This document shows positions 24,675 through 64,000 of a stretch of 64,000 nucleotides of DNA, piece after piece (position 1 is the stretch's first letter; the number at the start of each line of letters is the position of its first letter). The notes under the pieces are model-generated. The model was given only the letters and a program-made list of their open reading frames with translations. It searched no databases and was not told the origin of the DNA. Both the position numbers and the translations under genes were made by a program. This stretch comes from Octopus sinensis. Taxonomy: Eukaryota. Location: the NCBI RefSeq assembly GCF_006345805.1, contig NC_043001.1, positions 97,278,001 through 97,342,000 of the forward strand, given 5' to 3'.

Positions 24675-24964
24675 GTATAGAGGGTATTATTACACATAAA
24701 TGCCTCTTAATTGTTAAATATATATATATATATATATTTACATATGTATATATATATATATTATATATATATTACAAAATTAGAGAATGGAGAAATATAC
24801 TTAAATCAGTAAAACATCAACTATCCGATGATACTCAATCCATACTTTAATACACCATTACATATGAGTAAAGGCAATACATAAAATGAAATGAGATATA
24901 CAGTAATAGTAAAAAGATAAAGAGATATAAGTAAAAAATTTTCAAATATAATATGCAAATAATC

Positions 24965-25078
24965 AAAACTGACAGCTGTTTCGGCAGTGAGGACAGTCAT
25001 ACCTCATTTACCTATAAGCCATAAGGCAGGTATAAATGAGGCATTAACAAGGATGCCCCACGGCCTCTTCAGAGAATT
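24965..25078 (-). ncRNA. Hammerhead ribozyme motif, family A
   Basis: Reverse complement of 25988-26103. Confidence 0.72.
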
Positions 25079-25427
25079 AAATTAAATTTGTTATAATAGT
25101 GAAAAATATTATACAATCATATACTATAAATATAAAATATAAAAATGTAAAATATAAAAACTTATACATCATAAAGCTACACTTATATAATATAATACAC
25201 ATTTGTACAAAAAAGGAAGGTAAACAGAACAAAATAAAAAAATATATAATAGTGTATATATTAATATCAATAAGTACCGATATTATACATATTTGGCTAA
25301 TAGTTTTTTTTATACATATAAAAAAAAGGCTAACATATAGGAGATGAAAAATAATAATTAAATCCGTGGTACAGTTCATAAGATTCTAAAGCTATAAAAG
25401 TTAATAAAATTACTATTAATAATAATA

Positions 25428-25465
<38 letters not shown>

Positions 25466-25987
25466 TATAATAAAAAATAGATACAGTTAAGTTAGCACCA
25501 AGTCCATCCTTACAAGATCGAAATAACTATTACTTAGTTATTTCGATCTTGTAAGGATGGACTTGGTGCTAACTTAACTGTATCTATTTTTATTATATTT
25601 TTTTATTATTATTATTATTATTATTACTATTATTATTATTATTATTATTAATAGTAATTTTTATTACTTTTATAGCTTTAGAATCTTATGAACTGTACCA
25701 CGGATTTAATTATTATTTTTCATCTCCATATATGTTAGCCTTTTTTTATATGTATAAAAAAACTATTAGCCAAATATGTATAATATCGGTACTTATTGAT
25801 ATTAATATCACTATTATATATTTTGTTTTATTTTGTTCTGTTTACCTTCCTTTTTTGTACAAATGTGTATTATATTATATAAGTGTAGCTTTATGATGTA
25901 TAAGTTTTTATATTTTACATTTTTATATTTTATATTTATATGTTAATGATTGTATAATATTTTTCACTATTATAACAAATTTAATTT

Positions 25988-26103
25988 AATTCTCTGAAGA
26001 GGCCGTGGGGCATCCTTGTTAATGCCTCATTTATACCTGCCTTTATGGCTTATAGGTTAAATGAGGTATGACTGTCCTCACTGCCGAAACAGCTGTCAGT
26101 TTT
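25988..26103 (+). ncRNA. Hammerhead ribozyme motif, family A (extended stem II, palindromic stem III)
   Basis: CTGAAGA(25994)-GGCCGTGGGG...CCTCACTGCC-GAAA(26086)-C-AGCT-GTC; ACAGCTGT is self-complementary; stem I is weak. Confidence 0.72.
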
Positions 26104-26507
26104 GATTTATTTGCATATTATATTTGAAAATTTTTTACTTATATCTCTTTATCTTTTTACTATTACTGTATATCTCATTTCATTTTATGTATTGCCTTTA
26201 CTCATATGTAATGGTGTATTAAAGTATGGATTGAGTATCATCGGATAGTTGATGTTTTACTGATTTAAGTATATTTCTCCATTCTCTAATTTTGTAGTAT
26301 TAATTTACGGTAATATTTACCTTTACCCATATAATGCAATAGATGAACTGATTGTTTGACAATTTTTAACATCTATGTATTAATTTTGTTGGTACCTATC
26401 TAGCAGTATATTGGATATATATTATCCCATGGTGGGTTGAATTTTCAACCCCTATCTCATTTTATACCTATATATATATATATATATATAATATTATATA
26501 CCGTATG

Positions 26508-26787: not shown

Positions 26788-26822
<35 letters not shown>

Positions 26823-26823
26823 A

Positions 26824-29176
26824 TATAAAATATTATTCGAGACAAAACCAAACCACTATTTTGCAAAACAAACAAGGAAAGACTTAATCAATACATAAAT
26901 TTTAATAAATAGTCAAAAAAACCGCCACTACAATCGTTTCTTGTCTTGATCGACAATCTTCAGGTGGACTTCCAATCTAAAAAAATCATATTTTAAAATA
27001 ATAATAATTTTAAGATAATTAAAGTATGAATGAAAAATATAAGTATATAATCCATATATAACCTATCTATAATCCATATATAATCAATAATAAACAATAT
27101 ATAAACTAAAAAAACCTATCAACAATTAAATATAAAATATAAAATATAAAATATAAAATATAAAATATAAAATATAAAACAAAACAAAATAATAATAATA
27201 ATAATAATAATATAATATTAAACTATATATACACCCATACGCATATACCTAATTATATATAACCATATCTAACTACATACACTAAATCACACACCTATAT
27301 ATATATCCCTATACATACACATAAAAATGTCTAGGCAACTATAAATAATAAAATAGCTAAATACTTCAACACAATACTTATTCATACTCCCACACACCAC
27401 ACCTACAACCCACATTCACGCTCTAGAAAATGGACATCACTCAAAACTATGAACGAGAAATAGAATAATGGAATTAAAAATTATATTCACTTGGTAAAAC
27501 GAACACTACTTAAAAATTATGAATGAAACAATGCAATAAAACAACAGACATCGCAAATAGACACAATTACTACTACAATTCCTTATCAAACCTACCATGA
27601 TAACCAAAACTCATAAAAACATATAATGATAAAATCTCCCTTTACTAAACTCTATAACAAACCTATATAGCAATCCCCCTAACCTAAACATTCACACACA
27701 AATACACACACGTAAACCACACACCCCCGACATATACAAATACCCACCCACATACACACATACCTACATACATATAACCTCAACATATACTCCAAAAACC
27801 CACTCAACCCCCACAAGACAAATAAACACAAAAGTTATAATGGATTCTTTTATAAAACTACCATGATAAGCTAAAACTCACAAAACAGAAATGATAACCT
27901 CCCTTTACTAAACACTAAAACATACTTATATAGCAATTCCTTTAACCTATACTTCACACCAAAACCACTCGTAAACCACACACCCATAACAAATACAAAC
28001 TCCCCCCCCACTCACACACACCCACAAGTACATATAAGCCTCACATATACACCAAACAAAATTACTTACCAAGGAACTTAACATATATAAAAAAAGTATA
28101 ACCGCTCTGGAACGAACATCTCTAAATTAATGAATGGAGAATGGAATAAATGGAATTAAAAATAAAATTCACGTGGCAAAACGAACACCACTCAAAAATT
28201 ATGAATGAAACAATGTAATAAAACAACCAACATCGAAAATAGACAAATTACAACGAATTCCCTAAAAAAAAAAAACCATGATAAACCAAAACTCCTAAAA
28301 ACATATAACGATAAATCTCCCTTTGCTAAACTCTATAACAAACCTATATAGCAATCTCCCTAACCTAAACATTCACACACAAATACACACTCGTAAACCA
28401 CAGACCCACGACTTATACACATACCTATACTAACTTATAACCTCATATACAACCAAAACCACTCCCTCCCACACAGACAAATTAACACATACATCCCAAA
28501 ACCTAAATAACAAACCCATATACACATTCACACAAACACACACACCGCAAAACACACACACCCAACAGATACATATACTCCCTCACATATACGCATATAC
28601 ATACTCACTAAACTCGATATATACAACAATATTTACACACCCACACTCATACAGATAAATAAATTATACAACTAAAAACTCGCACACAATCTCTTATACA
28701 TAAACACACCTATGAAAACAACATTAAATACATCGTAATTAACCAGAATATCAAAAATAACAATATGACATAAGATAAATAAAATACATACTTACAATTC
28801 AGTGTCAAATTATGAAGTGAAATTAAATTCTTAGCCGTTAAAAAAATCAAACCAAAATTACGTTACCATAGAAATAACTTATGTAAAAAAAGAATACGCG
28901 TCATGGAAAGTAAACGTCATTTAAATTATGAATGGAGAAATAGAAAAATGGAACTAAATTTTGGTGTATATTGAGGTTTATAAATTAGAAACAATTGTAG
29001 TGGCGGTTTTTTTGACTATTTATTAAAATTTATGTATTGATTAAGTCTTTCCTTGTTTGTTTTGCAAAATAGTGGTTTTGTCTCGAATAATATTTTATAA
29101 TATTTTACTATAAAATCGATTTAATCCTAAATCTGATTTTTTCCCTGTAAATTTGGATTTATTCCCTAATATTTAT

Positions 29177-29180
<4 letters not shown>
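26824..29180 (+). mobile_element. Family B fold-back element 1: long inverted part, short sense arm 28987-29099, tail 29100-29180
   Basis: 26824-~26941 is the reverse complement of 28987-29099; internal degenerate CA-rich subrepeats; (TA)n on both sides; homologous to 30928-35179. Confidence 0.85.
26925..26967 (-). ncRNA. Hammerhead ribozyme motif, family B
   Basis: Minus strand: ccac-CTGAAGA-ttgtc-gatcaa-gacaa-GAAA-C-gatt-GTA-gtgg. Confidence 0.8.
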
Positions 29181-29255
<75 letters not shown>

Positions 29256-29257
29256 GG

Positions 29258-29306
29258 AGCTTCTACAGGACTAGTACTGTTTCATTCAAGAGAATCTTCA
29301 GGAAGC
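29258..29306 (-). ncRNA. Hammerhead ribozyme motif, family D (inverted copy)
   Basis: Minus strand: gcttc-CTGAAGA-ttctcttgaat-GAAA-cag-tactagtc-ctGTA-gaagc. Confidence 0.7.
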
Positions 29307-29310
29307 CCTG

Positions 29311-29361
29311 AGCTTCCTGAAGATTTCTCTTGAATGAAACAGTACTAGTCCTGTAGAAGCT
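29311..29361 (+). ncRNA. Hammerhead ribozyme motif, family D
   Basis: agcttc-CTGAAGA(29317)-tttc tctt gaat-GAAA(29336)-cag tactagtc ct-GTA(29353)-gaagct; 6-bp stem I, 4-bp stem III, short stem II with a U-U closing mismatch. Confidence 0.75.
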
Positions 29362-29444
29362 CCTTCTATATAATAAATTAATTTTACTCTGCTATGTATT
29401 GAGTACCTTACTTACTGTGGTTAACCCCGGATCAACCCGGGACC

Positions 29445-29480
<36 letters not shown>

Positions 29481-30672
29481 CACACACACAGATATATATA
29501 TATATATAGAGAGAGAGAGGTGCAAATGAGAGTAGCTGTATCAAACTCCATTCTTCACCAAGTGCCACATATTAGACGAGGTTCGTCGTAATAACAGCAT
29601 AGAACAAAACGGCGGTGCATCAGCATGGCCGCAGCTCGGAGCTAAAACTAGAAAAAAAAAAATATATATATGAATGTAGATATTGTAAAGCGTACCGAGG
29701 AAAATTTATAAACTTATTAAAATCGTTTGTGCGTGTGAAAACACACGCTCTCACTGAGCTACAGACAACTACCTATGCATGTATGTGTCCGCATATACGC
29801 ACAAACACACTAATACAGATGCTGATACACACATACGCAAACACCCAAACGCACAAACATACACACTCATATGTTCTTTAGTCTTGAAATTGTTGTTCGG
29901 TCTAAGACTGTGTATATGTGTTTAGCTTAGTTTTTGTTAGTTTCACTATTCAATGAGTGAGTATATACGTTTTACTTCCCGTGTTTGTTGATGAATTATA
30001 GATAAATCTAAAGGAATTACATCGACATGAGTGGCGTTTCATTATCAATGTCTCAGAGTTTTGAATTATTCGGTAACGTCCAGTATATCAGACGGAAAAT
30101 ATTGCTTGATGAAGTTAAAAAAAAAAGATTTTCTAACATTACAAAAACAAAAAAGAAAACAGCAAAAATACCCACATATTAGTAAACAAAGTATTTTTTA
30201 AAAGTAACATTAAATAAAATTACCCCTACAAAAAGAAAGGAAAAATAAATAGAACTAATATATATCAAGCGACAAGCAGACAGACAAATACGTTGTAGAC
30301 AAAAGCGATGAGACCTGGAGTGATGCCAAATTGAAAATACAGCGAAATGGTGAAGGATGAAAATAATTAGGACTATGTTGAAAATGTTTCGTTAAATTGA
30401 ATGATTTTTCTGAAAAGAAACGAAAACATAGAAAAATGTAATTGGAAATCAATGACGAAGACACTTTTCATGCATGGGTTCATGATTTTCTATATATCGT
30501 GTTAGTCTATTTGGTCAGTTCATAATCAGTCTAGAATCAGTTTAAGAGATTTAAGGTTTAGAATAATGTGTGATAATGATGTACACATGCCTTCTGAAAA
30601 CAACGTGTTATTTGTCTATTCGTAGTCAATGCTACGTAGTAATATATTTGAAGATAATATGTATATATACAT

Positions 30673-30714
<42 letters not shown>

Positions 30715-30823
30715 GTATACATATATACATATATACATATATATACATATATACATATATATAAACATATATATATATATATATACATATATATACATAT
30801 ATATATATACATATATATAAACA

Positions 30824-30858
<35 letters not shown>

Positions 30859-31112
30859 GTATACATATAGATAGATATATAAACATATATATATGTATGT
30901 ATATATACATATATATATACATATATAATAATAATAATAAATATTAGGGAATAAATCCAAATTTACAGGGAAAAAAATCAGATTTAGGATTAAATCCAAT
31001 TTTATAGTAAAATATTATAAAATATTATTAGAGACAAAACCACTATTTTGCAAAACAAACAAGGAAAGACTTAATCAATACATAAAATTTTAATAAATAG
31101 TCAAAAAAACCG

Positions 31113-31155
31113 CCACTACAATTGTTTCTTGTCTTGATCGACAATCTTCAGGTGG
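31113..31155 (-). ncRNA. Hammerhead ribozyme motif, family B
   Basis: Reverse complement of 35044-35086. Confidence 0.82.
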
Positions 31156-34100
31156 ACTTCCAATCTAAAATATCAATATTTTAAAATATAAAAATAATAA
31201 TTTTAAAATAATTAAAGTATTAATGAAAAATATAAATATATAATCCATATATAACCTATATATAATCCATATATAATCAATATATAAACAATATATAAAC
31301 TAAAATAAACCTATCAACAATTAAATATAAAATATAAAATATAAAATATAAAATATAAAACAAAACAAAAAAATACTAATAATATAATAATAAACTATAT
31401 ATACACCCATACACATATAACTAATTATATATAACCATATCTAACTACATACACTAAATCACACACCTATATATATATCCCTATACATACACATAAAAAC
31501 GTCTAGGCAACTATAAATAAATAAAATAGCTAAATACTTCAACACAATACTTATTCATACTCCCACCACGGACAAATAAACACATACATCCCCAAAAATT
31601 GGGCGCAATCCCACTCACACCAATCATATATGTATACAATTATACACACAAGAATAATACATTACTAACCCAAATATACAGAACATACCAAAAATCACCA
31701 ACAAACCACCATCACAAATGAAACCCACACCCATACAATGACAACCCCCCCCCTCCATACCCAATTTACACCCACATAGCAATCCCCATATATTCATCCA
31801 TACACGGACGCACGTGCGTGAAGCACATGCACACAACAAATACGTACAACCCCCCCAATACACACTCATATACATACGTATTAAGCTCGACATCCACAGC
31901 AATACGCTTACACCCACTCACACCCAGATGGGTGAACTGCACAACAAAGGAACGCACACACACACGTGTGCTTATTTTGATTGTGCACTTCGCCCATCAG
32001 CATGTATGCGGGCGTGATTACACCGTTGCACATATCGAGCCCAACTAGCATGCACATGTACATGTGAGTGGGTACACGCACATGCCGTGCGCGTGTACCC
32101 CCCGCATTTATACCCGTGCGTGAATATACACATGGAGACTACCACACAGGTACAAATGTGTATAGTAAAGGGAGCCCCATCACTACACTCAATGTATACT
32201 CTCACCCATCCGCACGGATGTGAAAGCGAATCACCGGTGTATATATTGAGGCTAATACGTAGCGTTGTGGAGGCGAACGTCGTTTAAATTGTGAATGAAT
32301 GGGTGGAGTTGGGAATTGTAACCGGGTGGTGGGCTAGCGTTGCTTAGAATTGGGAATGGAATAGTGTAGTAGAATCGCAGGCATCGAGAATAGACTTGGG
32401 TTACTGCAAATTGTTTGTTAGAGCTGCCAAGATGAGATAAAGCTCATAAATGTATATAATAATTTATCATGGTAGTTTTATTAAAGAATCCATTCATAAT
32501 AAATTTTTTTAAGTAGTGTTGGTTTGCGACGTGGATATAGTTTTTAGGTCCATTTATTCTATTTCTCCATTCATAATTTTAAATGACGTTTACTTTCCAT
32601 GGCGCGTATTCTTTTTATACATAAGTTATATTTCTATGGTAACGTAATTTTGGTTTGATTTTTTTAACGGCTTAGAATTTAATTTCACTTCATAATTTGA
32701 AACTGACTTGTAAGTATGTATTTTATTTCTCCTTATGTCATATTGTTATTTTTGATATTCTGGTTAATTACGATGTATTTAATGTTGTTTTTCATTGGAG
32801 TGTTTATGTATATGAGATTGTGTGTGAGTTTTTAGTTGTATAATTTATTTATCTGTATGAGTGTGGGTGTGTAAATATTGTTGTATATATCGTGTTTAGT
32901 GAGTATGTATATGCGTATATGTGAGGGAGTATATGTATCTGTTGTGTGTGTGTGTTTTGCGTGTGTGTGTGTTTGTGTGTGAATGTGTATATGGGTTTGT
33001 TATATAGGTTTGGGGATGTATGTGTTAATTTGTCTGTGTGGGGAGGGAGTGGGTTTTTGGTGTATATTGAGGTTTATAAGTTAGTATAAGTATGTGTGAG
33101 TGAGGTGGGTATTTGTATAAGTCGTGGGTCTGTGGTTTACGTGTGTGTATTTGTGTGTGAATGTTTAGGTTAGGGGGATTGCTATATAGGTTTGTTATAG
33201 AGATTAGCAAAGGGAGATTTTATCGTTATATGTTTTTAAGAGTTTTGGTTTATCATGGTTTTTTTAGGGAATTCGTGGTAATTTGTCTATTTTCGATGTT
33301 TGTTGTTTTATTACATTGTTTCATTCATAATTTTTGAGTGGTGTTCGTTTTGCCACGTGAATATTATTTTTAATTCCATTTATTCCATTTCTCCATTCAT
33401 AATTTTAAAAGATGTTCGTTTACAGAGCGGTAATACTTTTTATACATATGTTAAGTTCCTTGGTAACGTAATTTTGTTTGGTGTATATGTTGAGGCTTAT
33501 ATGTACTTGTGGGTGTGTGTGAGTGGGGTGGGTGATTGTATTTGTTATGGGTGTGTGGTTTACGTGTGTGTATTTGTGTGTGAATGTATAGGTTAAAGGG
33601 ATTGCTATATAAGTATGTTATAGTGTTTAGTAAAGGGAGGTTTTATCATTTATATTTTTGTGAGTTTTAGTTTATCATGGTAGTTTTATAAAAGAATCCA
33701 TTCATAATATTTTAAAAATAATGTTGGTTTACCGCGTGTATATAATTTTTAATTCCATTTATTCTATTTCTCCATTCATAATTTTAAGTGAGGTTTGCTT
33801 CCATAGAGCGTATTTTTTTTTATACATAAGTTATGCTCCTATGGTAACGTAATTTGGTTTGATGGTTTTAACGGATTAGAATTTAATTTCACTTCATAAT
33901 TTGAAACTGACTTGAAAGTATGTATATTATTTCTCCTTATGTCATATTATTATTTTTGATATTCTGGTTACTTACGATGTATTTTATATATCGTATTATG
34001 TGTAATAATGTTGTTTTTCTTTGGAGTGTTTATGTATGTGGGATTGTGTGTGAGTGTGTGCGTATTTTGGTTGTGTAGTTTGTTTATCTGTATGAATGTG

Positions 34101-35043
34101 GGTGTGTTAATATTGTTGTATATGTCGAGTTTGTGTGAGTATGTATATGTATATGGTGTGTGTTTTACGTATGTATATTTGTGTGTGAATGTGTTTATGG
34201 GTTTGCTATTTAGGTTTGGGGATGTATGTGTTTATTTGTCTGTGTGGGGTTGAGTGGGTTTTTGGAGTATATGTTGAGGTTTATATGTATGTATAGGTAT
34301 GTGTAAGTGTGGTGGGTATTTGTATATGTCGTGGGTGTGTGGTTTACGTGTGTGTATTTGTGTGTGAATGTTTAGGTTAGGGGGATTGCTATATAGGTAT
34401 GTTATAGAGTTTAGTAAAGGGAGATTTTATCATTATATGTTTTTATGAGTTTTGGTTTATCATGGTAGGTTTGTTAAGGAATTCGTAGTAATTTGTGTCT
34501 ATTTGCGATGTCTGTTGTTTTATTGCATTGTTTCATTCATAATTTTTAAGTAGTGTTCGTTTTACCAAGTGAATATAATTTTTAATTCCAATTATTCCAT
34601 TCTCCGTTCATAATTTTAAGTGATATCCGTTTCCAGAGCGGGATTGTGGGTTGTATGTGTGTGTGTGGGAGTATGAATAAGTATTGTGTTCAAGTATTTA
34701 GCAATTTTATTTATTTATAGTTGCCTAGACGTTTTTATGTGTATGTATAGGGATATATAATAGGTGTGTGATTTAGTGTATGTAGTTAGATATGGTTATA
34801 TATAATTAGTTATATGTGTAGGGTGTATATATAGTTTATTATTATATTATATTATTTTTTTGTTTTGTTTTATATTTTATATTTTATATTTTATATTTTA
34901 TATTTAATTGTTGATAGTTTATTTTAGTTTATATATTGTTATATATTGATTATATATGGATTATATATTTATATTTTTCATTAATACTTTAATTATTTTA
35001 AAATTATTATTTTTATATTTTAAAATATTGATAGATTGGAAGT

Positions 35044-35086
35044 CCACCTGAAGATTGTCGATCAAGACAAGAAACAATTGTAGTGG
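35044..35086 (+). ncRNA. Compact type I hammerhead ribozyme motif, family B
   Basis: ccac-CTGAAGA(35048)-ttgtc-gatcaa-gacaa-GAAA(35071)-C-aatt-GTA-gtgg; ACAATTGT palindrome in stem III; predicted cleavage after 35082. Confidence 0.85.
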
Positions 35087-35417
35087 CGGTTTTTGACTAT
35101 TTATAAAAATTTTATGTATTGATTAAGTCTTTCCTTGTTGGTTTTGCAAAATAGTGGTTTTGTCTCTATAATATTTTATATACAATATATTATAACATTT
35201 ATATATATATATATATCAATATATAACATATATATACATTATAATATATATTATACATACATATATATATAAATATATATATACATAAATATATATACAT
35301 ACATATATATATATATACATATATAAAAATAACTATATATTCATATATATATATACATATATATATATACATAAATATATATACATACATATATATATAT
35401 ACATATATATATATATA

Positions 35418-35514
<97 letters not shown>

Positions 35515-35655
35515 ATATATATAAATATATATACTAGCAGCATAGCCCGGCGTTGCCCGGGTATGTAAGAGCCCCTAGTAGGCAACGACTAATCCCAATG
35601 TAGTCCTTTCCCTCCAGGGAACGAAGGTGCATGTGGACGTTGCAATGTCTTGTCT

Positions 35656-43457: not shown

Positions 43458-43622
43458 CTATCCATCTATGTAAATCCACACGTATATATATATATACATT
43501 CAACAATATAAGGAATGGCCATATAGGACATTCGACTCACTAGAAAGAGCAGCCAAAACTCATACCGCTAAATAGTTGGAATTCTGAAATAGAAAGAGAA
43601 ATACAAACGTTTACCCCTTTCA

Positions 43623-43719
43623 TCTCTGGACTAAGCATAGTTTCGGCAAAACTTTGGCAAATGAATTAATTTTAATTAAATTAAATTCATTTACATCTGG
43701 CGTGCCTCGTCAGCAGAGA
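43623..43719 (-). ncRNA. Type I hammerhead ribozyme motif, family E unit 1
   Basis: Minus strand: tctctg-CTGACGA-ggca...tgcc-GAAA-cta-tgct-taGTC-cagaga; perfect 6-bp stem I, 4-bp stem III, long AU-rich stem II. Confidence 0.88.
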
Positions 43720-44093
43720 GCCTAGGACGAGTATATGTCCACGAGGCTATGGTAAAGAAGCCTCCAGTCACATATGCTCTAAATTTTCAAATCTTACCGC
43801 AATCGCGCGATCTACTCAGCAGCAAATATAAACCGCTGATTTAATTTCAAAATTAGCCAAAAAATCATTAATTAATAAATATAAGGGTAGCAAAAAATTC
43901 TAGAAAAAATTTTCCTCTACCAGCGGTCTAGTGAGAAAGGGAAAATAGTCAAAGACTATATAATATACATTCAACAATATAAGGAATGGCCATATAGGAT
44001 ATTCGACTCACTAGAAAAAGCAGCCAAAACTCATACCGATAAATAGTTGTAATTCTGAAATAGAAAGAGAAATAAAAACGTTTACCCATTTCA

Positions 44094-44184
44094 TCTCTGG
44101 ACTATGCATATTTTCGGCAAAACTTTGGCAAATGAATTAATTAAATTAAATTCATTTACATATGGCGTGCCTCGTCAGCAGAGA
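44094..44184 (-). ncRNA. Type I hammerhead ribozyme motif, family E unit 2
   Basis: Same as unit 1 but GAAA-A-tatgcata-GTC (C>A mismatch at the base of stem III). Confidence 0.75.
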
Positions 44185-44513
44185 GCCTAGGACGAGTATA
44201 TGTCCACGAGGCTATGGTAAAGAAGCCTCCAGTCACATATGCTCTAAATTTTCAAATCTTACCGCAATCGCGCGGTCTACTCAGCAGCAAATATAAACCG
44301 CTGATTTAATTTCAAAATTAGCCAAAAAATCATTAATTAATAAATATAAGGGTAGCAAAAATTTCTAGAAAAAATTTTCCGCTACCAGCGGTCTAGTGAG
44401 AAAGTAAATTAGTCAAAGACTATATAATATACATTCAACAATATATATGTTATGTTTTGACGATTTCCGTTTATTGTGTGTTTTTTTTTTACCTTATATG
44501 TATGTATATATAT

Positions 44514-46608
44514 ATATAAGAATGAATGTTTTTATATATAATGAACGTGAAATACAGGAAGGGACGAACACGGAACACAGACAAATCATTCGAAGCCTTC
44601 AATCTTCAGTCAGACACCGAATCATCATAGCAAATTTCGGCTGTTCAATTCTGATATTTGCTCCAACTCGGCCAGCCCCAAGAAAAAAAACTAAGCTGTA
44701 AGCATTAGATTTCTTGGTAGAAGACAGGAATGTGAACGCACAAGACGGATGTGAATACAAGAGACGAAAACGAAATTGAAAACAGTAATGAATAAACAGA
44801 ACATATATAACGGTGGTTGTCATACGACTTTAGACCAAATGAGACAAAAACACAACAACATAGCTGGCGTAGAAATAATTACCGTTTCGGTAGCGGGGAC
44901 ACATGTTGGTCGAGATACGAAGGCCAACAGAATGGTTTAAGAAGCAGCAGGTCGCAGGAGAGAGAGAAAGAGAGACAGAGAGAGAGGGAATCAAAGAGGG
45001 TGGAAGGCAGGGGACAGAATCAGTGACCAAGAGAAAAGGAAAAAGAAGGGATTAAGGAGGATGGGAGGAAGAGGGGAGGAGGATGGGAGGAAGAGAGGGG
45101 AAGAATCGGAGGGCGCCAAAAAGTTTGGTGAAGAAGCAATGGCGGGTAGTAAAAGACAGTGTGTATAGAAGTCGTGCAGGGTTTAAAAATTGGACAAACA
45201 AACGGGGGGGTGCACGTAACGCCGCAATAATATAAGAATGAATGTTTTTATATATAATGAACGTGAAATACAGGAAGGGACGAACACGGAACACAGACAA
45301 ATCATTCGAAGCCTTCAATCTTCAGTCAGACACCGAATCATCATAGCAAATTTCGGCTGTTCAATTCTGATATTTGCTCCAACTCGGCCAGCCCCAAGAA
45401 AAAAAACTAAGCTGTAAGCATTAGATTTCTTGGTAGAAGACAGGAATGTGAACGCACAAGACGGATGTGAATACAAGAGACGAAAACGAAATTGAAAACA
45501 GTAATGAATAAACAGAACATATATAACGGTGGTTGTCATACGACTTTAGACCAAATGAGACAAAAACACAACAACAACATAGCTGGCGTAGAAATAATTA
45601 CCGTTTCGGTAGCGGGGACACATGTTGGTCGAGATACGAAGGCCAACAGAATGGTTTAAGAAGCAGCAGGTCGCAGGAGAGAGAGAGAAAGAGAGACAGA
45701 GAGAGAGGGAATCAAAGAGGTGGAAGGCAGGGGACAGAATCAGTGACCAAGAGAAAAGGAAAAAGAAGGGATTAAGGAGGATGGGAGGAAGAGGGAGGAG
45801 GATGGGAGGAAGAGGGGAGGAGGATGGGAGGAAGAGAGGGGAAGAATCGGAGGGCGCCAAAAAGTTTGGTGAAGAAGCAATGGCGGGTAGTAAAAGACAG
45901 TGTGTATAGAAGTCGTGCAGGGTTTAAAAATTGGACAAACAAACGGGGGGGTGCACGTAACGCCGCAATAATATAAGAATGAATGTTTTTATATATAATG
46001 AACGTGAAATACAGGAAGGGACGAACACGGAACACAGACAAATCATTCGAAGCCTTCAATCTTCAGTCAGACACCGAATCATCATAGCAAATTCGGCTGT
46101 TCAATTCTGATATTTGCCCAACTCGGCCAGCCCCAAGAAAAAAAACTAAGCTGTAAGCATTAGATTTCTTGGTAGAAGACAGGAATGTGAACGCACAAGA
46201 CGGATGTGAATACAAGAGACGAAAACGAAATTGAAAACAGTAATGAATAAACAGAACATATATAACGGTGGTTGTCATACGACTTTAGACCAAATGAGAC
46301 AAAAACACAACAACAACATAGCTGGCGTAGAAATAATTACCGTTTCGGTAGCGGGGACACATGTTGGTCGAGATACGAAGGCCAACAGAATGGTTTAAGA
46401 AGCAGCAGGTCGCAGGAGAGAGAGAAAGAGAGACAGAGAGAGAGGGAATCAAAGAGGGTGGAAGGCAGGGGACAGAATCAGTGACCAAGAGAAAAGGAAA
46501 AAGAAGGGATTAAGGAGGATGGGAGGAAGAGGGGAGGAGGATGGGAGGAAGAGAGGGGAAGAATCGGAGGGCGCCAAAAAGTTTGGTGAAGAAGCAATGG
46601 CGGGTAGT
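44514..46608. repeat. Family F tandem repeat, ~2.9 units of 716-741 bp, flanked by (TA)n
   Basis: AATGAATGTTTTTAT at 44521, 45237 and 45978; length variation lies mainly in a GGAGGATGGGAGGAAGAGG purine subrepeat. Confidence 0.92.
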
Positions 46609-47631
46609 ATATATATATATATATATATACATACGGGAATATGCAAGCGCTTACACGCGTGTGCAAACCTATGGCATACTATCCACGGATAGAGAACGTA
46701 CGCGCGTGTGCGCGGATATGCAAATGTAAGTGTTTACTGTTGAGTAATATAACATCATTTTACCTCCGACTGCTATGTTATATTCCTCTAATGACTAGTA
46801 ACATTACCCCCCATCTCCCCCTTTTTATTTCGCTCCCCGCTTTCCTTCCTAGAAAATCCACCTTATTCCCACTACTAAATATGTAACCCCTTCTCTTCCT
46901 TTTGTATTCATTCCTAACAATTTCACTTCTAAAAATTCTAGCTTTTTCTTTTATTTTCTTTTGCTACTGTATAAGTGCATGTACTTGGGTGCGACAGTAT
47001 ATATATTTACCGTTGATAAAGTAAAATGACCCCAGCTTAACATCAACAACGACCTTCCCTCAGTCAACATCAGTTTGACCTAAAATACCCTTTCTCCCTC
47101 TCTCTCCTTTTCTTTATTCTTAACAGCTTCAGAAAATTGCCCTCATCTATAATGTTGATCTTCTTTTCTATTAGCGACCATTTTCTATTACCGAACCCTC
47201 GCGAATGGGAAAGTATAGAATTCCCTCCCTGCATAAGTGTCTCGTCAAGCGACGGACTGAGAGTTATCTCTCTAAATGGAATCTGTTTAGTTCGGGTGTA
47301 GTGTAGCATGTTCTTAGTGTCCGTAGATGAAGGCTGGGTAGGAATCTGCACCAAGGGATGCACCACAACTAGTTGTATAGCTTCCCACCCGCGAAGTATC
47401 GATGCAAGCTGTATCGAAACGATCGTAATGAGCAATATAGTTTCCCGTGCATTCAATGTCTGTCTCTATCGTTTGTTATTATACCAAACGGACACTGAAG
47501 ATTCCTGTGTTAGATCCAGTGATATTTGTTTAATTATCATGAATGCCGTCAGGTAGCCATAGATAGTGAACATGCTCTGTCGGTGTACTACTAGGGACAT
47601 ATACAACACTTAAATATTAGCCTTATATATA

Positions 47632-58576: not shown

Positions 58577-58614
<38 letters not shown>

Positions 58615-58646
58615 TAGCGAGAAAGAAGCAACAAGAATGGATAGGT

Positions 58647-58732
58647 TTTTAGTACAATCGTTTCATACAAGGACAGGCTTTATGTTGCAAAAATTACAGC
58701 ATATAAACGTGTCCCGTACTCATCAGCTAAAA
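58647..58732 (-). ncRNA. Hammerhead ribozyme motif, family C (inverted copy)
   Basis: Reverse complement of 60413-60502 with a small stem II deletion. Confidence 0.8.
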
Positions 58733-60412
58733 TACATGTGAGTTCTCTAGACATCCTAGTGGTTGAGGCTATACTCATGAAGTAATGTAGATAATTAAGT
58801 AACATAAACAGATTTCCAAAGTTCATTAAAGATGATGTACAGTCTTATCACAGAATTTTAAAAAGGTTTTAATAGCATCACAGAGAAGGTGACCTAATCC
58901 ATAGTGCACATATGAATTTCCCACGCTAAATTGAAGACTTTAAAATATTTTAAATGATTAGAATTTTCGTAACTAGATAGATAGATAGATATAACTTGAT
59001 TTTTACTAGTATAGCACTGCTTTAAGTAGATAACTAAGAGTTCTCACACTACAGTTATCTTTTTCGTTATATCTGCATCAGTTTGTTGAGAACAGAGAAA
59101 TGAATAGTACTTATACGCTGCTTAATTGAGGCTTTATTTAATTTCAAACTCATAATTTTAAATCTTAATTTTAAATCTTAATTGTAACTTTTAATTTTAA
59201 TTCTTAACTTAATCTAATTTAAGTAGCATAACTTTAATAAAATAAAATGAGTTACTAAAGCCCCATAATTCTATTTCAAAATTAAATAAATAAGGCTACT
59301 CCCTCGGTGATAATATGATTATCTTCATTATGATAGACAATTCCCTAACAACCTTGTAAATGATCTTCTAAGATTTGACCTGTAGTCCGTCAATGTATGA
59401 ATAATAACGGCAACTCCTTAAGACAATAAAAAAATGAATAAATGAAATAAATAAATTTTAATGACTTTTTGATAAGATTATACTTAGATTTTCCTAATGT
59501 ATTTTCTTTGATTTTAGCCTCTGACTCCTAAACCCCTGACCGTGTTATCTCTTTAGATTCTCTTTAAATTCATAGCTGATTTCAACAGCAACAATTAGCT
59601 GTTTTACTGGTCAAAGAATAATATTCTCCTCTAGTTCCTAGATGCCTGTAAATTAAAACTAGACTTGCCGTCTACTAATTCTTCTGTATAACTAGAACCC
59701 TCTTTTTTCTTTTTTTTTTTCCCTTCTTTCCCTATTTCTTTTCTTTTCTCTTTTTTCTTTTTCTTCTTCTTATTCTCTTTTTCCTTTTCTCTTCTCTTTT
59801 AGTCCCCCTCACCCCCTTTTTTGCTCCCTCCTCCTTTATTTTCTCTCTTTTCTTCTCTCCCTTCCCTTTTCTGTTCTTTGCATCTCTAGAAAGCCCTTCA
59901 GCCTTTAAAAGTTAAATAGCTACAGCCTCTTGTAAATAGCAGAATGTGATTAATGTGGCAAATACCTAATCATCTAAACAAGAATTGATACTTACCTCAT
60001 TGTGTTCAACCATTGATAAATTTATCGCCTGTGAATATGAAATTCCTCTTCATTTCTCTGGAAATTTACATCTACACCATTGGAAATTGTGCATCTATAC
60101 AAAGGATTAATTCACCCTCTCTGTAATGCTAATAAGCAGGAATTGAGACCCCACATCGTTGTGATAACAATGGATAAATTTGTCGTCTGTGAGTATGTAA
60201 TCCCTCCTCATATCTGGAAATTCATATGTGCACTATGGATTAGGTCACCTTCTCTGTGATGCTATTAAAACCTTTTTAAAATTCTGTGATAAGACTGTAC
60301 ATCATCTTTAAAGAACTTTAATGAACTTTGGAAATCTGTTTATGTTACTAATATCTACATTACTTCATGAGTATAGCCTCAACCACTAGGATGTCTAGAG
60401 AACTCACATGTA

Positions 60413-60502
60413 TTTTAGCTGATGAGTACGGGACACGTTTATATGCTGTAATTTTTGCAACATTAATAAAGCCTGTCCTTGTATGAAACGATTGTACTAA
60501 AA
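60413..60502 (+). ncRNA. Type I hammerhead ribozyme motif, family C
   Basis: ttttag-CTGATGA(60419)-gtacgggaca...tgtccttgtat-GAAA(60485)-C-gatt-GTA-ctaaaa; perfect 6-bp stem I. Confidence 0.83.
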
Positions 60503-60914
60503 ACCTATCCATTCTTGTTGCTTCTTTCTCGCTTATAATCACCCCACATTACTGTATTGTTAAAACAGTATAGTTTTTTTGGTGCATCTAAGTTAGGTAC
60601 CATATTCAAGTAAATTCATTTAAATTAACTTGAATCTTTATTGCTTTTTATATACATATATAATATATATACATATATATATAGATAATATATATATATA
60701 TATATATATATATAATACTACAAAATTAGAGAATGGAGAAATAGAAAATACTATAAATCAGAAAACATCAACTATCCGATGATACTCAATCCATACTTTA
60801 ATACACCATTACATATGAGTAAAGGCAATACATAAAATGAAATGAGATATACAGTAATAGTAAAAGATAAAGAGATATAAGTAAAAAATTTTCAAAATAA
60901 TATGCAAATAAATC

Positions 60915-61030
60915 AAAACTGACAGCTGTTTCGGCAGTGAGGACAGTCATACCTCATTTAACCTATAAGCCATAAAGGCAGGTATAAATGAGGCATTAAC
61001 AAGGATGCCCCACGGCCTCTTCAGAGAATT
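60915..61030 (-). ncRNA. Hammerhead ribozyme motif, family A (third copy)
   Basis: Reverse complement of 25988-26103. Confidence 0.72.
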
Positions 61031-61366
61031 AAATTAAATTGTTATAATAGTGAAAATATTATACATCATATACATATAAATATAAAATATAAAAATGTAA
61101 AATATAAAAACTTATACATCATAAAGCTACACTATATAATATAATACACATTTGTACAAAAAGGAAGGTAAACAGAACAAAATAAAACAAATATATAATA
61201 GTGTATATATTAATATCAATAAGTACCGATATTATACATATTTGGCTAATAGTTTTTTTTATATATATAAAAAAAAAAGGCTAACATATATGGAGAAGAA
61301 AAATAAAAATTAAATCCGTGGTACAGTTCATAAGATTCTAAAGCTTAAAAGTTAATAAAAATTACT

Positions 61367-61403
<37 letters not shown>

Positions 61404-62621
61404 TAATAATAATAATAATAATAATAAAAAATATAATAAAAAATAGATACAGTTAATTAGCACCAAGTCCATCCTTACAGATCGAAATAACTATGAGTTA
61501 AGAAATGCTGACCACTAGGTAAAGAAAATATAGATTAATTCGATTGGCTATTGGTTTGAAATTTAAATCACAAAAGAAATTATACGGTTGGTTAGTCAGG
61601 GAACGCCAATATTCACACACGCATCTACAGATCAATCGCACATACACACATAGTAAATATGTATATGCTACAATACACATACATAATTACAAGCACAACT
61701 AGCACATAGATAAACAAAAAGGGAAGCAACTATGCTACAATTTAGTCCTTCAAATTATAATTGTGCCTCAATAATAAAAGAAGAACCATCCATGCATTCC
61801 ATAAAATATTTAATTTAGATATAAATATATTTTAAATATCAGTATATTACTAAGTCAGATACTTTACATGGGTAACTTAAAATTTATAACACCGGTTGTT
61901 GCAGAGTAAACATACGGTTGTTAGATTTATCGTAAGTTTTGTTATGGTTTTAAGTACGCTAAATATAAAAAAATATAAAATATAAAATATATTAATTAAA
62001 TTATTATAATAAGTAACTTATAACTTAATAAATATAGTGCCATAATATACCAGTTTAGGCATTAAAGAATAGAAGGGGAAGTATTAATGTAAACGCTTAT
62101 GAGAACATCATAGAAATTTTAAATAAATTTTATATTATAAAGACTTAAGATGAAAAGAGATAAAATAAATAAGAAGGAATAAAATACGAAGGAATAAATA
62201 CGGTTATACACATAATTTAAGTACAAAAACCAGTATATATGTATTCATATATTATTAAAATTAAATAAAAATAAATGATAGATATGTATGTATAAAACTA
62301 CCCCAGTATAAGTAAATAAGTAAAAATAAATAGGTAGCAAATTAGATGACTTGATATGTATGTAAACATCTACACTTAAATAGGCAAATAAATAAATAAA
62401 TAGAAGACTAGATGCAAAAATTGATAATATTACAATAAAATGGAAAATAAATAAAAAATAATAAATAGAGTGAATATATATGTATATTGTTGAAAGTAAA
62501 TATGTATGGAAGGATAGTTTAAAGTACAGATCCAGAGTATAGATATAAACTAATATATGAGGCTGGTAATAATTATAAAGCATAATGCATGTAAATGAGA
62601 AAATGAAAAAAATGAAAAAGG

Positions 62622-64000
62622 TTTATCATTAGTCAGAGAATTTCTAGTTTATCCTCAAACGAGGAAATTTTTAACAAACACTGTGACAGATACAATGCAG
62701 CATTGCTTAAGGCAGGATATAAAAGTAAGATTTGGTTTATACCTAAGGGGAACCCCCCTAAATGTAGTAGAACTATCAGGAACAACACAAATAGATTTAG
62801 GATAATCAACAATATACATAAGAATTGTAAAAATGGAATATATGATAACACCTATAATAAATGTAGAAGTGATGTTAACCTTGGAAAGGTGAACGGTAGC
62901 TCAAATAGATCTAAACATACGGGTAATAGTAGGAATATTAATAATAATATACGAATTAAAACTTATGGCAGACATGATAATGGTAAAGTTTACTTGCGCA
63001 ATAACCATGGTAATATTGATATAGATAAATATAACAATGACAGTGGTAAGAATAGTAATCCTATGAGTTGGTCTACGAATAGGATTTTTACAAATAACAT
63101 TAATTCTATAGGCAATCCTAATTCTGATAAGGATACTCTTTGGTGATTATCCATATGCAATGCAGATTAAAACAACATAGTGAGAGCTTTGCATAATGTT
63201 ATTTTTAGGCATTTTGGTAAGGATAAGAATAAATTTAGTCCTTAATTAACAACGGTACTGTTAGAGTGGGATATAGCATTACTCATAATCTAGCCACCAT
63301 TATCTCCTCTTTTAATAACAAGAAACTGGATCACTTCTATAAGGATAAATTGAATTTAGACCAGGAAAACTTGCCCCTCTTCATTAATAATAGAATAGAA
63401 ACTTTCTTGGAACAAATGGGAACAACCTCCTTACTAATAATGAGTGCACCATACCTGTCAGAGATATATAAATGAAATAGATCATACTACTACTACCAAT
63501 ACTAGTACTAGTGATAAGAATATAGCCGATAATGGGAAATTAACTCATTCGTTGTTTTGGGTTTGGATGATGATAACAATTGTAACACTTATAATGTGAA
63601 TAGTAGTATAGGGTGTTTGTCCAATTTCAGATTTCCTCATTCTGTTAATCTTTGTAATTTCAGAAATAAAAATAAATGTGTATTTGGTAATCAATGCCTC
63701 AGGAAGAGGTAGTTTACCAATGCACTGTAGATACACAATTGAGTAGTAGGTGTATATCGGGGCAACTATGAATAGCATAAAACAAAGATGGAATTATCAC
63801 AGATATACTTTTAGGAATAAAAATAGAATGTACTCTACAGGCTAAGTGCATACATTTGGGAGCTTAAAAATAAGAACTTAGATTTTAGATTAAACTGGAA
63901 AATACTAACTTCAGCACCTGTGTATAATGGAAAAAATAAAAAATGCTCTCTATGTATTAATGAAATTTTCTTCATTATTAAAGCGGGTCGGAAAATTATT
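62622..64000 (+). pseudogene. PLE polyprotein C-terminal part: thumb end, Asn-rich linkers, GIY-YIG endonuclease (Naiad-like), frameshifted
   Basis: Hand translation: ISQRISSLSSNEEIF..YNAALLKAGY; TVRVGYSITHNLATIISSFNNKKL; CNFR..CVFGNQCL..VVYQC..VYIGAT..KQRWNYHRYTF..LSAYIWELK..WKIL..CSLCINE. The clade assignment is from memory of motifs. Confidence 0.82.

What the first reader, a model, noticed from the sequence alone, without database searches (positions are those of the whole stretch)
60713..64000. Fold-back family A is physically linked to a GIY-YIG Penelope-like ORF, giving a testable parent and a prediction beyond the window
Seen: the same arm as 24773-25529, then A-rich non-coding DNA to ~62620, then an abrupt start of thumb + GIY-YIG coding on the plus strand with no RT core. 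The HHR here is antisense to the ORF. The frameshifts look like single-base deletions. Inference: this is a 5'-truncated PLE with an inverted 3' region, and the 24773-26470 palindrome is the ORF-less extreme of the same family.
Basis: partly seen in the sequence, partly recalled or inferred. Interest (0 to 1): 0.7.

Follow-up and report, generated by a model that had tools for sequence, protein, structure and literature searches.

The report
Oversized Hydra-clade Penelope retrotransposon, twin-ended insertion
This is a cut-short, mirror-ended copy of a young jumping gene whose intact 5.6-kb parent lies elsewhere in the genome; the layout is a known one, but the ends of dozens of copies suggest that each insertion is likely started twice on the element's RNA and often runs to a predicted RNA start point.

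Summary
Observation and prediction hold. Past 64000 the ORF ends, the reverse complement of 60713-62628 follows (95.6%), then the 26303-26470 tail and (TA)n. The missing RT core is this copy's 5' truncation. Other copies extend 1.5 kb further, and two carry an intact 947-aa RT + GIY-YIG ORF with the motifs of Hydra-clade Penelope-like elements. The 24769-26470 palindrome is the same family's last 0.8 and 1.0 kb, head to head.

The layout is published, and this scan has reported such stubs and twin priming on other DNA of this genome. This family differs in size: a 5.6-kb unit (listed Hydra elements are at most 3.05 kb), a 2.6-kb 3' UTR, a 169-nt tail (usually 30-40) and an 85-nt hammerhead stem II.

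In a chromosome-ordered census, 43 of 44 two-arm insertions pair one short end with one long end. Arm 5' ends pile up six-fold at one site (22 seen, 3.6 expected), just downstream of a conserved CCAAT box and at an initiator-like motif; the window's palindrome folds exactly there. Likely mechanism: two primings at two internal RNA sites, with run-off at a transcription start. No RNA evidence was obtained.

The parts
60645..60712 (.). (TA)n target microsatellite, left flank
   Evidence: 91 of 91 short ends found in the fetched loci abut (TA)n
60713..62628 (-). Inverted arm: 3' UTR of the element, unit positions U5433 (short end, at 60713) back to U3489; no tail
60921..61024 (-). Type I hammerhead motif: CUGAAGA core, 85-nt stem II, GAAAC, palindromic minimal stem III, predicted cut after GUC; antisense to the ORF
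   Evidence: z -4.3; identical to the parent copy; Rfam found no hammerhead match
61489..61497 (-). Initiator-like motif at U4640-4648 (motif label recalled); site where arm 5' ends cluster; predicted transcription start
61541..61549 (-). CCAAT box at U4590, about 50 nt upstream of the cluster; its 8-nt core is invariant in 5 of 5 aligned copies including the most diverged
62627..62628 (.). Head-to-head junction, 2-nt microhomology (CA)
62627..64000 (+). 5'-truncated ORF (about residues 465-926 of P0001): RT thumb, linker, GIY-YIG endonuclease; continues past the window to a stop at window-equivalent 64069, then 3' UTR, sense hammerhead (66194), tail ending at 66657, (TA)n
62750..63130 (+). 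Asn-rich insertion 1 (about 125 aa, 26% Asn), absent from 8 of 11 aligned homologues and shorter in the three closest; predicted disordered
63370..63645 (+). Asn/Thr-rich insertion 2 (about 90 aa), predicted disordered
63650..64000 (+). CxCx5C linker motif (second Cys reads Phe in this copy), VVY...YIG core, CxxC; CxH lies just past the window
24769..26470 (.). ORF-less palindrome of the same family: short-end arm (minus, U5433 to U4643) joined to long-end arm (plus, U4644 to U5602) with tail 26303-26470; hammerheads at 25072 (-) and 25994 (+)

Best explanation
This is a 5'-truncated insertion of a young Penelope-like retrotransposon with Hydra-clade motifs, made of a sense copy and an inverted copy of the element's 3' end, and it was likely formed by two separate priming events on the element's RNA. 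Shown: the 5602-nt unit (5' UTR, 947-aa RT + GIY-YIG ORF, 2.6-kb 3' UTR with hammerhead); two fixed 3' ends 169-173 nt apart; (TA)n flanks; one short plus one long end per inverted insertion; a cluster of 5' ends at U4590-4670. Inferred: the endonuclease nicks both strands of a (TA)n run; one nick primes reverse transcription at the short internal site and the other at the long site; the two cDNAs stop at different points and are joined by microhomology, giving tail-out mirror arms. Inferred with less support: the RNA starts near U4643, under a CCAAT promoter in the upstream copy's 3' UTR. Priming in that first terminal repeat and run-off at the RNA's 5' end would give the ORF-less 1.7-kb palindromes such as 24769-26470.
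For: Downstream prediction met. Intact ORFs in 2 of 11 loci checked; RT motifs DKT, FD, MGS, YRDD; the top five Foldseek matches are telomerase RTs. In a census of the first 100 of 362 exact hammerhead hits, 43 of 44 two-arm insertions are short + long. In 14 of those 43 the tail-less arm reaches more than 45 nt further 5' than the tailed arm, so neither arm can be a copy of the other. Nine of 43 are symmetric within 45 nt against 2.4 expected (permutation P 0.00015), as expected if both copies can run to the end of one RNA. Hotspot: 22 of 60 arms at risk end in U4590-4670 against 3.6 expected (P 5e-11; 20 vs 3.6 without the window's copies), 10 of them at U4642-4648, in both a young and an older subfamily. 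CCAAT core invariant in 5 of 5 copies; initiator region 16 of 17 identical in a subfamily 75.7% identical over the 3' UTR; no stable RNA fold at U4481-4720 (z +0.3 to +2.5). Two internal RT start sites defining the tail were shown in vitro for an anole element (PMC11167929), and a promoter in the pLTR for Drosophila Penelope (PMC2377424).
Against: No RNA, cleavage or priming data: every mechanistic step is read from DNA ends. Arm ends were read by hand from BLAST limits in an indel-rich assembly, and the hotspot window was chosen after seeing the data. L125 has a long end plus an end inside the tail. Outside the hotspot the symmetric excess is weak (5 of 39 vs 1.7, P 0.02). Three tandem copies have upstream pieces reaching 5' of the proposed start (L019, L053, L058), which needs longer or read-through RNAs. 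The initiator motif is not kept in the most diverged copy L062, and such short motifs arise by chance in AT-rich DNA. In vitro the anole enzyme showed no strand difference in start site (PMC11167929), so strict short/long pairing has no biochemical basis yet. Pfam gave no significant match, and no GIY-YIG structure is among the Foldseek rows listed; the endonuclease call rests on motifs and homologue alignment.
Confidence: 0.7

Rival explanations
1. Self-priming (snap-back): one cDNA or an antisense template folds back and copies itself, producing the mirror arm, as proposed for Adineta Penelope elements.
For: Nine of 43 two-arm insertions are near-symmetric. Several hotspot junctions are centred on short self-complementary words, and a 5-bp hairpin lies at U4637-4649. 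Proposed in PMC3846280 (Discussion read).
Against: In 14 of 43 the short arm reaches further 5' while only the other arm has the tail, so neither can template the other. Single-arm and asymmetric insertions end at the same hotspot.
Confidence: 0.15
2. The 5'-end hotspot is not a transcription start but an RT stop, an RNA break site, or the 5' edge of short non-autonomous master copies.
For: Three single-arm copies (L079, L111, L127) share one internal deletion and all begin in the hotspot. An (ATT)n run lies about 60 nt downstream. A second excess of ends falls in the hammerhead stem II (13 of 96 at U5131-5212), so structure can stop the RT.
Against: No stable fold is predicted at the hotspot. 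Junctions differ between copies and occur in two subfamilies. A conserved CCAAT box lies upstream.
Confidence: 0.35
3. The inverted arms are fold-back artefacts of long-read sequencing or assembly.
For: The two arms of this copy differ by 60 indels but only 10 substitutions, which points to low base accuracy here.
Against: Mirroring stops exactly at element ends and never includes flanking DNA. Arms are mostly unequal, one has the tail and one does not in 43 of 44, and outer ends abut (TA)n.
Confidence: 0.03
4. An endonuclease-only (RT-less) family that begins at the thumb.
For: All 17 copies first compared with L013 that reached that far appeared to stop at or inside the same point.
Against: That limit was the reference's own end; against L019 the copies extend to many different points and 13 places match the first 501 nt at 95% or more.
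Confidence: 0.01

Closest known systems
Hydra clade of C-terminal EN+ Penelope-like elements, including Hydra-1_Obim of Octopus bimaculoides (Craig et al. 2021, PMC8557442; parts 1-6 of 10 of the text and supplement parts 1, 2, 7, 52 read)
   Same: Single ORF, RT then GIY-YIG; RWx, DKT, CxCx5C, CxxC and CxH motifs; no CCHH; hammerhead near the 3' end; (TA)n targets; partial tandems, inverted 5'-truncated copy, tail at one end. The first 400 residues of Hydra-1_Obim look homologous by eye.
   Different: Unit 5602 nt against 1080-3045 nt for the 27 listed families; ORF 947 aa against 709 for Hydra-1_Obim; 3' UTR 2.6 kb; tail 169-173 nt against 30-40; stem II region 85-100 nt against loops of at most 10 nt in the listed Hydra hammerheads. 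It is a different family from Hydra-1_Obim (different hammerhead and N-terminal sequence, by eye).
Poseidon of Anolis carolinensis, PAc (Frangieh et al. 2024, PMC11167929; parts 1-2 of 4 read)
   Same: Two internal end points bounding a tail; AT-rich targets; hammerhead cut site is not the insertion end.
   Different: There the start sites lie 111-118 nt into the ORF and the tail is short; here both ends lie upstream of the ATG (about 310 and 140 nt) and 200-375 nt past the predicted cut. No strand pairing rule or 5'-end hotspot was reported in the parts read.
Adineta vaga EN+ Penelope families (Arkhipova et al. 2013, PMC3846280; passages and Discussion read)
   Same: Inverted pLTR with optional tail, palindromic junctions, in-frame Asn-rich insertions between RT and EN, promoter motifs in the pLTR.
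   Different: Different clade, about 200-bp pLTRs, 31-bp tail, few copies; the authors favour self-priming on an antisense template.
Drosophila virilis Penelope (Schostak et al. 2008, PMC2377424; passages read)
   Same: Transcript begins in the upstream partial copy, so a tandem is needed for activity.
   Different: Its promoter is internal (downstream of the start); the candidate here is a CCAAT box upstream of the inferred start, which copies made from that RNA would lose.

Membership tests
Penelope-like elements (EN+) | Telomerase-like RT with catalytic motifs | tested here: met
   D283, MGS, YRDD (377-380) conserved in 28 aligned proteins; top five Foldseek hits are telomerase RTs
Penelope-like elements (EN+) | Partial tandems (pLTR), inverted 5'-truncated copy, one-sided tail | tested here: met
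Hydra clade | C-terminal GIY-YIG endonuclease in the same ORF | tested here: met
   VVY...YIG, R855, H859, E914, N927 aligned with homologues; by motif only, since Pfam and Foldseek gave no endonuclease match
Hydra clade | RWK motif and DKT | tested here: met
   RWR at 38-40 and DKT at 139-141
Hydra clade | CxCx5C linker; CxxC and CxH around the conserved E and N; CCHH absent | tested here: met
   C810/C812/C818, C908/C911, C936/H938; only one Cys between VVY and YIG
Hydra clade | Canonical hammerhead near the 3' end | tested here: met
   core intact, stem II extended to 85 nt; cleavage not tested
Hydra clade | Insertion into (TA)n | tested here: met
   91 of 91 short ends and 78 of 88 long-end anchor hits
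Hydra clade | Generally shorter than 3 kb (a stated tendency) | tested here: not met
   5602 nt
Hydra clade | No insertion-in-fingers domain | tested here: inconclusive
   spacing between motifs A and B equals that of the homologues; no reference alignment run
Hydra clade | RT phylogeny groups it with published Hydra families | not tested
   published reference proteins were seen only as cut text in the supplement and were not aligned
Naiad/Chlamys clade | N-terminal endonuclease with CxC motif | tested here: not met
   endonuclease is C-terminal
Metazoan non-LTR retrozymes | Short non-coding head-to-tail hammerhead repeats | tested here: not met
   copies are ends of a coding 5.6-kb unit, mostly head to head; one direct pair (L092) among the 66 entries of the census

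The most novel reading that the evidence does not exclude
The genome records the Penelope replication cycle directly: one ribonucleoprotein primes twice on a single RNA at two sites 170 nt apart, always one per target strand, and the ORF-less palindromes are run-off copies of the RNA's 5' terminal repeat, so their fold point (U4643) marks the transcription start under an upstream CCAAT promoter that every such copy loses.
Probability: 0.4. Interest if true: 0.65.

Novelty: new variant of a known kind. Interest (0 to 1): 0.42.

Why it matters
How Penelope-like elements make their tandem and inverted ends is still open: self-priming was proposed in 2013 and two internal start sites were shown in vitro in 2024. 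This family is young (22 of 29 compared copies within 2% of L019), has intact ORFs and at least 362 hammerhead-bearing arms, and its long tail makes the two ends easy to tell apart. It gives sharp predictions: two start sites, a one-per-strand rule and an RNA 5' end near U4643. It also names the coding parent of a common class of octopus-type hammerhead palindromes and doubles the listed size range of the Hydra clade. The locus itself is an ordinary dead copy.

Tried and rejected
Rfam scan of the window: 105 matches, none to a hammerhead family, mostly microsatellite-driven miRNA noise; the hammerheads were found by a motif script. Pfam: nothing significant for P0001. PDB sequence search: one weak retron RT hit, E 0.0074. 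Sequencing runs: no RNA holder listed; no reads were laid on the element, so expression, strand and RNA ends are untested. Naiad or selenoprotein reading: dropped, since the endonuclease is C-terminal and the intact ORF has no in-frame TGA. RT-less family: an effect of using the truncated copy as reference. Fold of the tail region: not better than shuffles (z -1.3), so no structure can be assigned to the two end sites. Two rows of alignment A3 (L059, L060) had mis-set coordinates and were not used. No tree was built. Literature searches listed no paper on this family, a pairing census or a 5'-end hotspot; subscription journals and Repbase/Dfam were not searchable, and the repeat library behind PMC13282606 (passages read; 31 recently active Penelope-like families in O. 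vulgaris; supplement not opened) may hold this family unnamed.

Full report
Setting. The window is G000:C5:97278001-97342000 in a 2.72-Gb genome. The host is probably an octopod (inference: the closest named homologue is from Argonauta hians, and earlier scan notes say the same). L013 holds window 60001-64000 plus the next 6 kb.

Observation. Window 60713-61493 matches both arms of the 24769-26300 palindrome at 93.8-94.6%. Coding sequence starts at 62627 in the RT thumb, and tblastn with the full protein finds no RT core in the window. A motif script finds the hammerhead on the minus strand at 61024-60921; Rfam missed it. Against an intact copy the ORF part has 9 substitutions, 13 deletions (12 single-base) and 2 single-base insertions. 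Twelve of the 13 deletions fall in runs of one base, and the two arms of this insertion differ by 60 indels but 10 substitutions, so most frameshifts are probably assembly errors (inference).

Prediction beyond the window. It is met in full. The ORF ends at L013 4069; L013 4583-6494 is the reverse complement of 713-2628 (95.6%); the tail follows to 6657, then (TA)n.

The parent. Other copies extend further 5'. L019:2097-7698 is a 5602-nt unit (U): 5' UTR 1-141, ORF 142-2985, 3' UTR to 5602, hammerhead core at U5127, short end U5433, long end U5602 to +3. Thirteen places match its first 501 nt at 95% or more. Of 11 loci checked, L019 and L029 have an unbroken 947-aa ORF. Full units are preceded by a partial direct copy in each case where flank was visible. 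Exact 24-mer counts fall from 3' to 5': hammerhead 362, tail 255, U4653 126, U4528 68, endonuclease 72, RT 13; these are lower bounds, and probes differ in how many subfamilies they catch. Twenty-two of 29 compared copies are within 2% substitution of L019, with older subfamilies at 4-28% (top-scoring hits, so biased to young copies).

The protein. Twenty-seven homologues at 29-43% identity align over RT, thumb and endonuclease. It has RWR, DKT, CxCx5C, VVY...YIG without CCHH, CxxC and CxH, the features Craig et al. give for the Hydra clade (PMC8557442). The model (mean pLDDT 74.8) is disordered at 52-79, 506-631 and 715-806; the last two are Asn-rich insertions (26% and 20% Asn), a phenomenon already described in rotifer Penelope elements (PMC3846280). 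The top five Foldseek matches are telomerase RTs. Pfam gave nothing significant, and no endonuclease structure was listed. No tree was built, so clade membership rests on motifs.

The hammerhead. Core and minimal palindromic stem III are as described for metazoan elements (PMC4209133, parts 1-2 of 4 read). Stem II holds an 85-nt hairpin (z -4.3). It is 95% identical in a subfamily whose 3' UTR is 75.7% identical overall; the tail is 92% identical. Older subfamilies keep an 85-100-nt stem with a CCGAAGA core, and 4 of 23 consensus pairs show two-sided changes among 7 related sequences (weak, since the sequences fall into two groups). The predicted cut lies 200 and 370 nt upstream of the two ends and so does not define them.

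Census of ends. I took the first 100 of the 362 exact hammerhead hits, listed in chromosome order. They gave 43 two-arm insertions with one short and one long end, one with a long end and an end inside the tail (L125), and 22 single arms, two of which form a direct pair. Left out of the count: L090/91 (long + short, junction not seen), L029 (three pieces; outer ends long + short) and one place not fetched. Across all fetched loci, 91 of 91 short ends and 78 of 88 long-end anchor hits abut (TA)n; the other 10 are 6 tandem junctions, 2 chance anchor matches, 1 cut by a locus edge and 1 short TA run. In 14 of the 43 the short arm reaches more than 45 nt further 5', in 20 the long arm does, and 9 are symmetric (2.4 expected by permutation, P 0.00015). 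The 14 cases exclude simple snap-back copying, because the tailed arm has sequence the other lacks and vice versa. Two primings fit all cases and match the two internal start sites shown in vitro for the anole element (PMC11167929).

The 5'-end hotspot. Of 60 arms reaching U4670, 22 end in U4590-4670; 3.6 are expected from flanking rates (P 5e-11; 20 vs 3.6 without the window's own copies; the interval was chosen after seeing the data, and a 15-fold correction leaves P near 1e-9). Ten end at U4642-4648. The window's palindrome folds at U4643/4644. Junctions differ between copies and come from two subfamilies. U4640-4645 fits an initiator consensus (recalled) with A at U4643. CCAAT boxes lie at U4583 and U4590; the second is invariant in 5 of 5 aligned copies, while the initiator motif is lost in the most diverged one. 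No stable fold is predicted there. I read the hotspot as the RNA's 5' end, since Penelope is transcribed from its upstream partial copy (PMC2377424). This step is inference only. Three tandem copies reach further upstream, and three single arms sharing a deletion all start in the hotspot, so short master copies or an RT stop remain possible.

Novelty. The arrangement is published for Penelope-like elements, Hydra elements are known from an octopus, and this scan has filed similar stubs and the twin-priming idea on other DNA of this genome. What this locus adds is the coding parent, its unusual dimensions, a counted pairing rule and a candidate start site. Five literature searches listed no description of these; the preprint 10.64898/2026.07.22.740005 was read in part 1 of 5 only. 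Verdict: a new variant of a known kind, interest 0.42.

Noticed in passing
window 58611-58921 and 60216-60537: A second, unrelated family's inverted pair (94.5%) with hammerheads at 58726 (-) and 60419 (+) and 55-59-nt stem II regions; it ends in the same (TA)n run that the finding's element inserted into.
   Followed up: partly
window 22966, 26963, 31151, 35048, 43713: Five more hammerhead motifs of other families, some with long stem II regions (59-62 nt); the window holds 10 motif hits in all.
   Followed up: no
window 26791-35563: A large nested inverted and direct repeat complex (for example 27835-28958 vs 33707-32543, 92%) with a GC-skew flip near 32000 and three hammerheads; looks like another family of the same kind.
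   Followed up: no
L062-L068: Older subfamilies of this element carry a CCGAAGA hammerhead core in place of CUGAAGA but keep the long stem II and the same two end sites.
   Followed up: partly
L079, L111, L127: Three single-arm copies share an identical deletion of about U4849-4996 and all begin in the hotspot; possibly a short non-autonomous lineage.
   Followed up: partly
L017 and L035 (G000:C6:47077.9-47090.5 kb): One copy appears split by an insertion of about 8.7 kb at U3898-3905.
   Followed up: no
L028: Exactly one permuted unit: tail first (from U5444), whole body, ending at the short site.
   Followed up: no
window 43485-46609: Tandem repeats with periods of about 470 and 716-739 nt, 95-99% alike.
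   Followed up: no
window 63660; L054: The second Cys of the CxCx5C linker reads Phe in this copy and in L054, so it may be an inherited variant, not an error.
   Followed up: no
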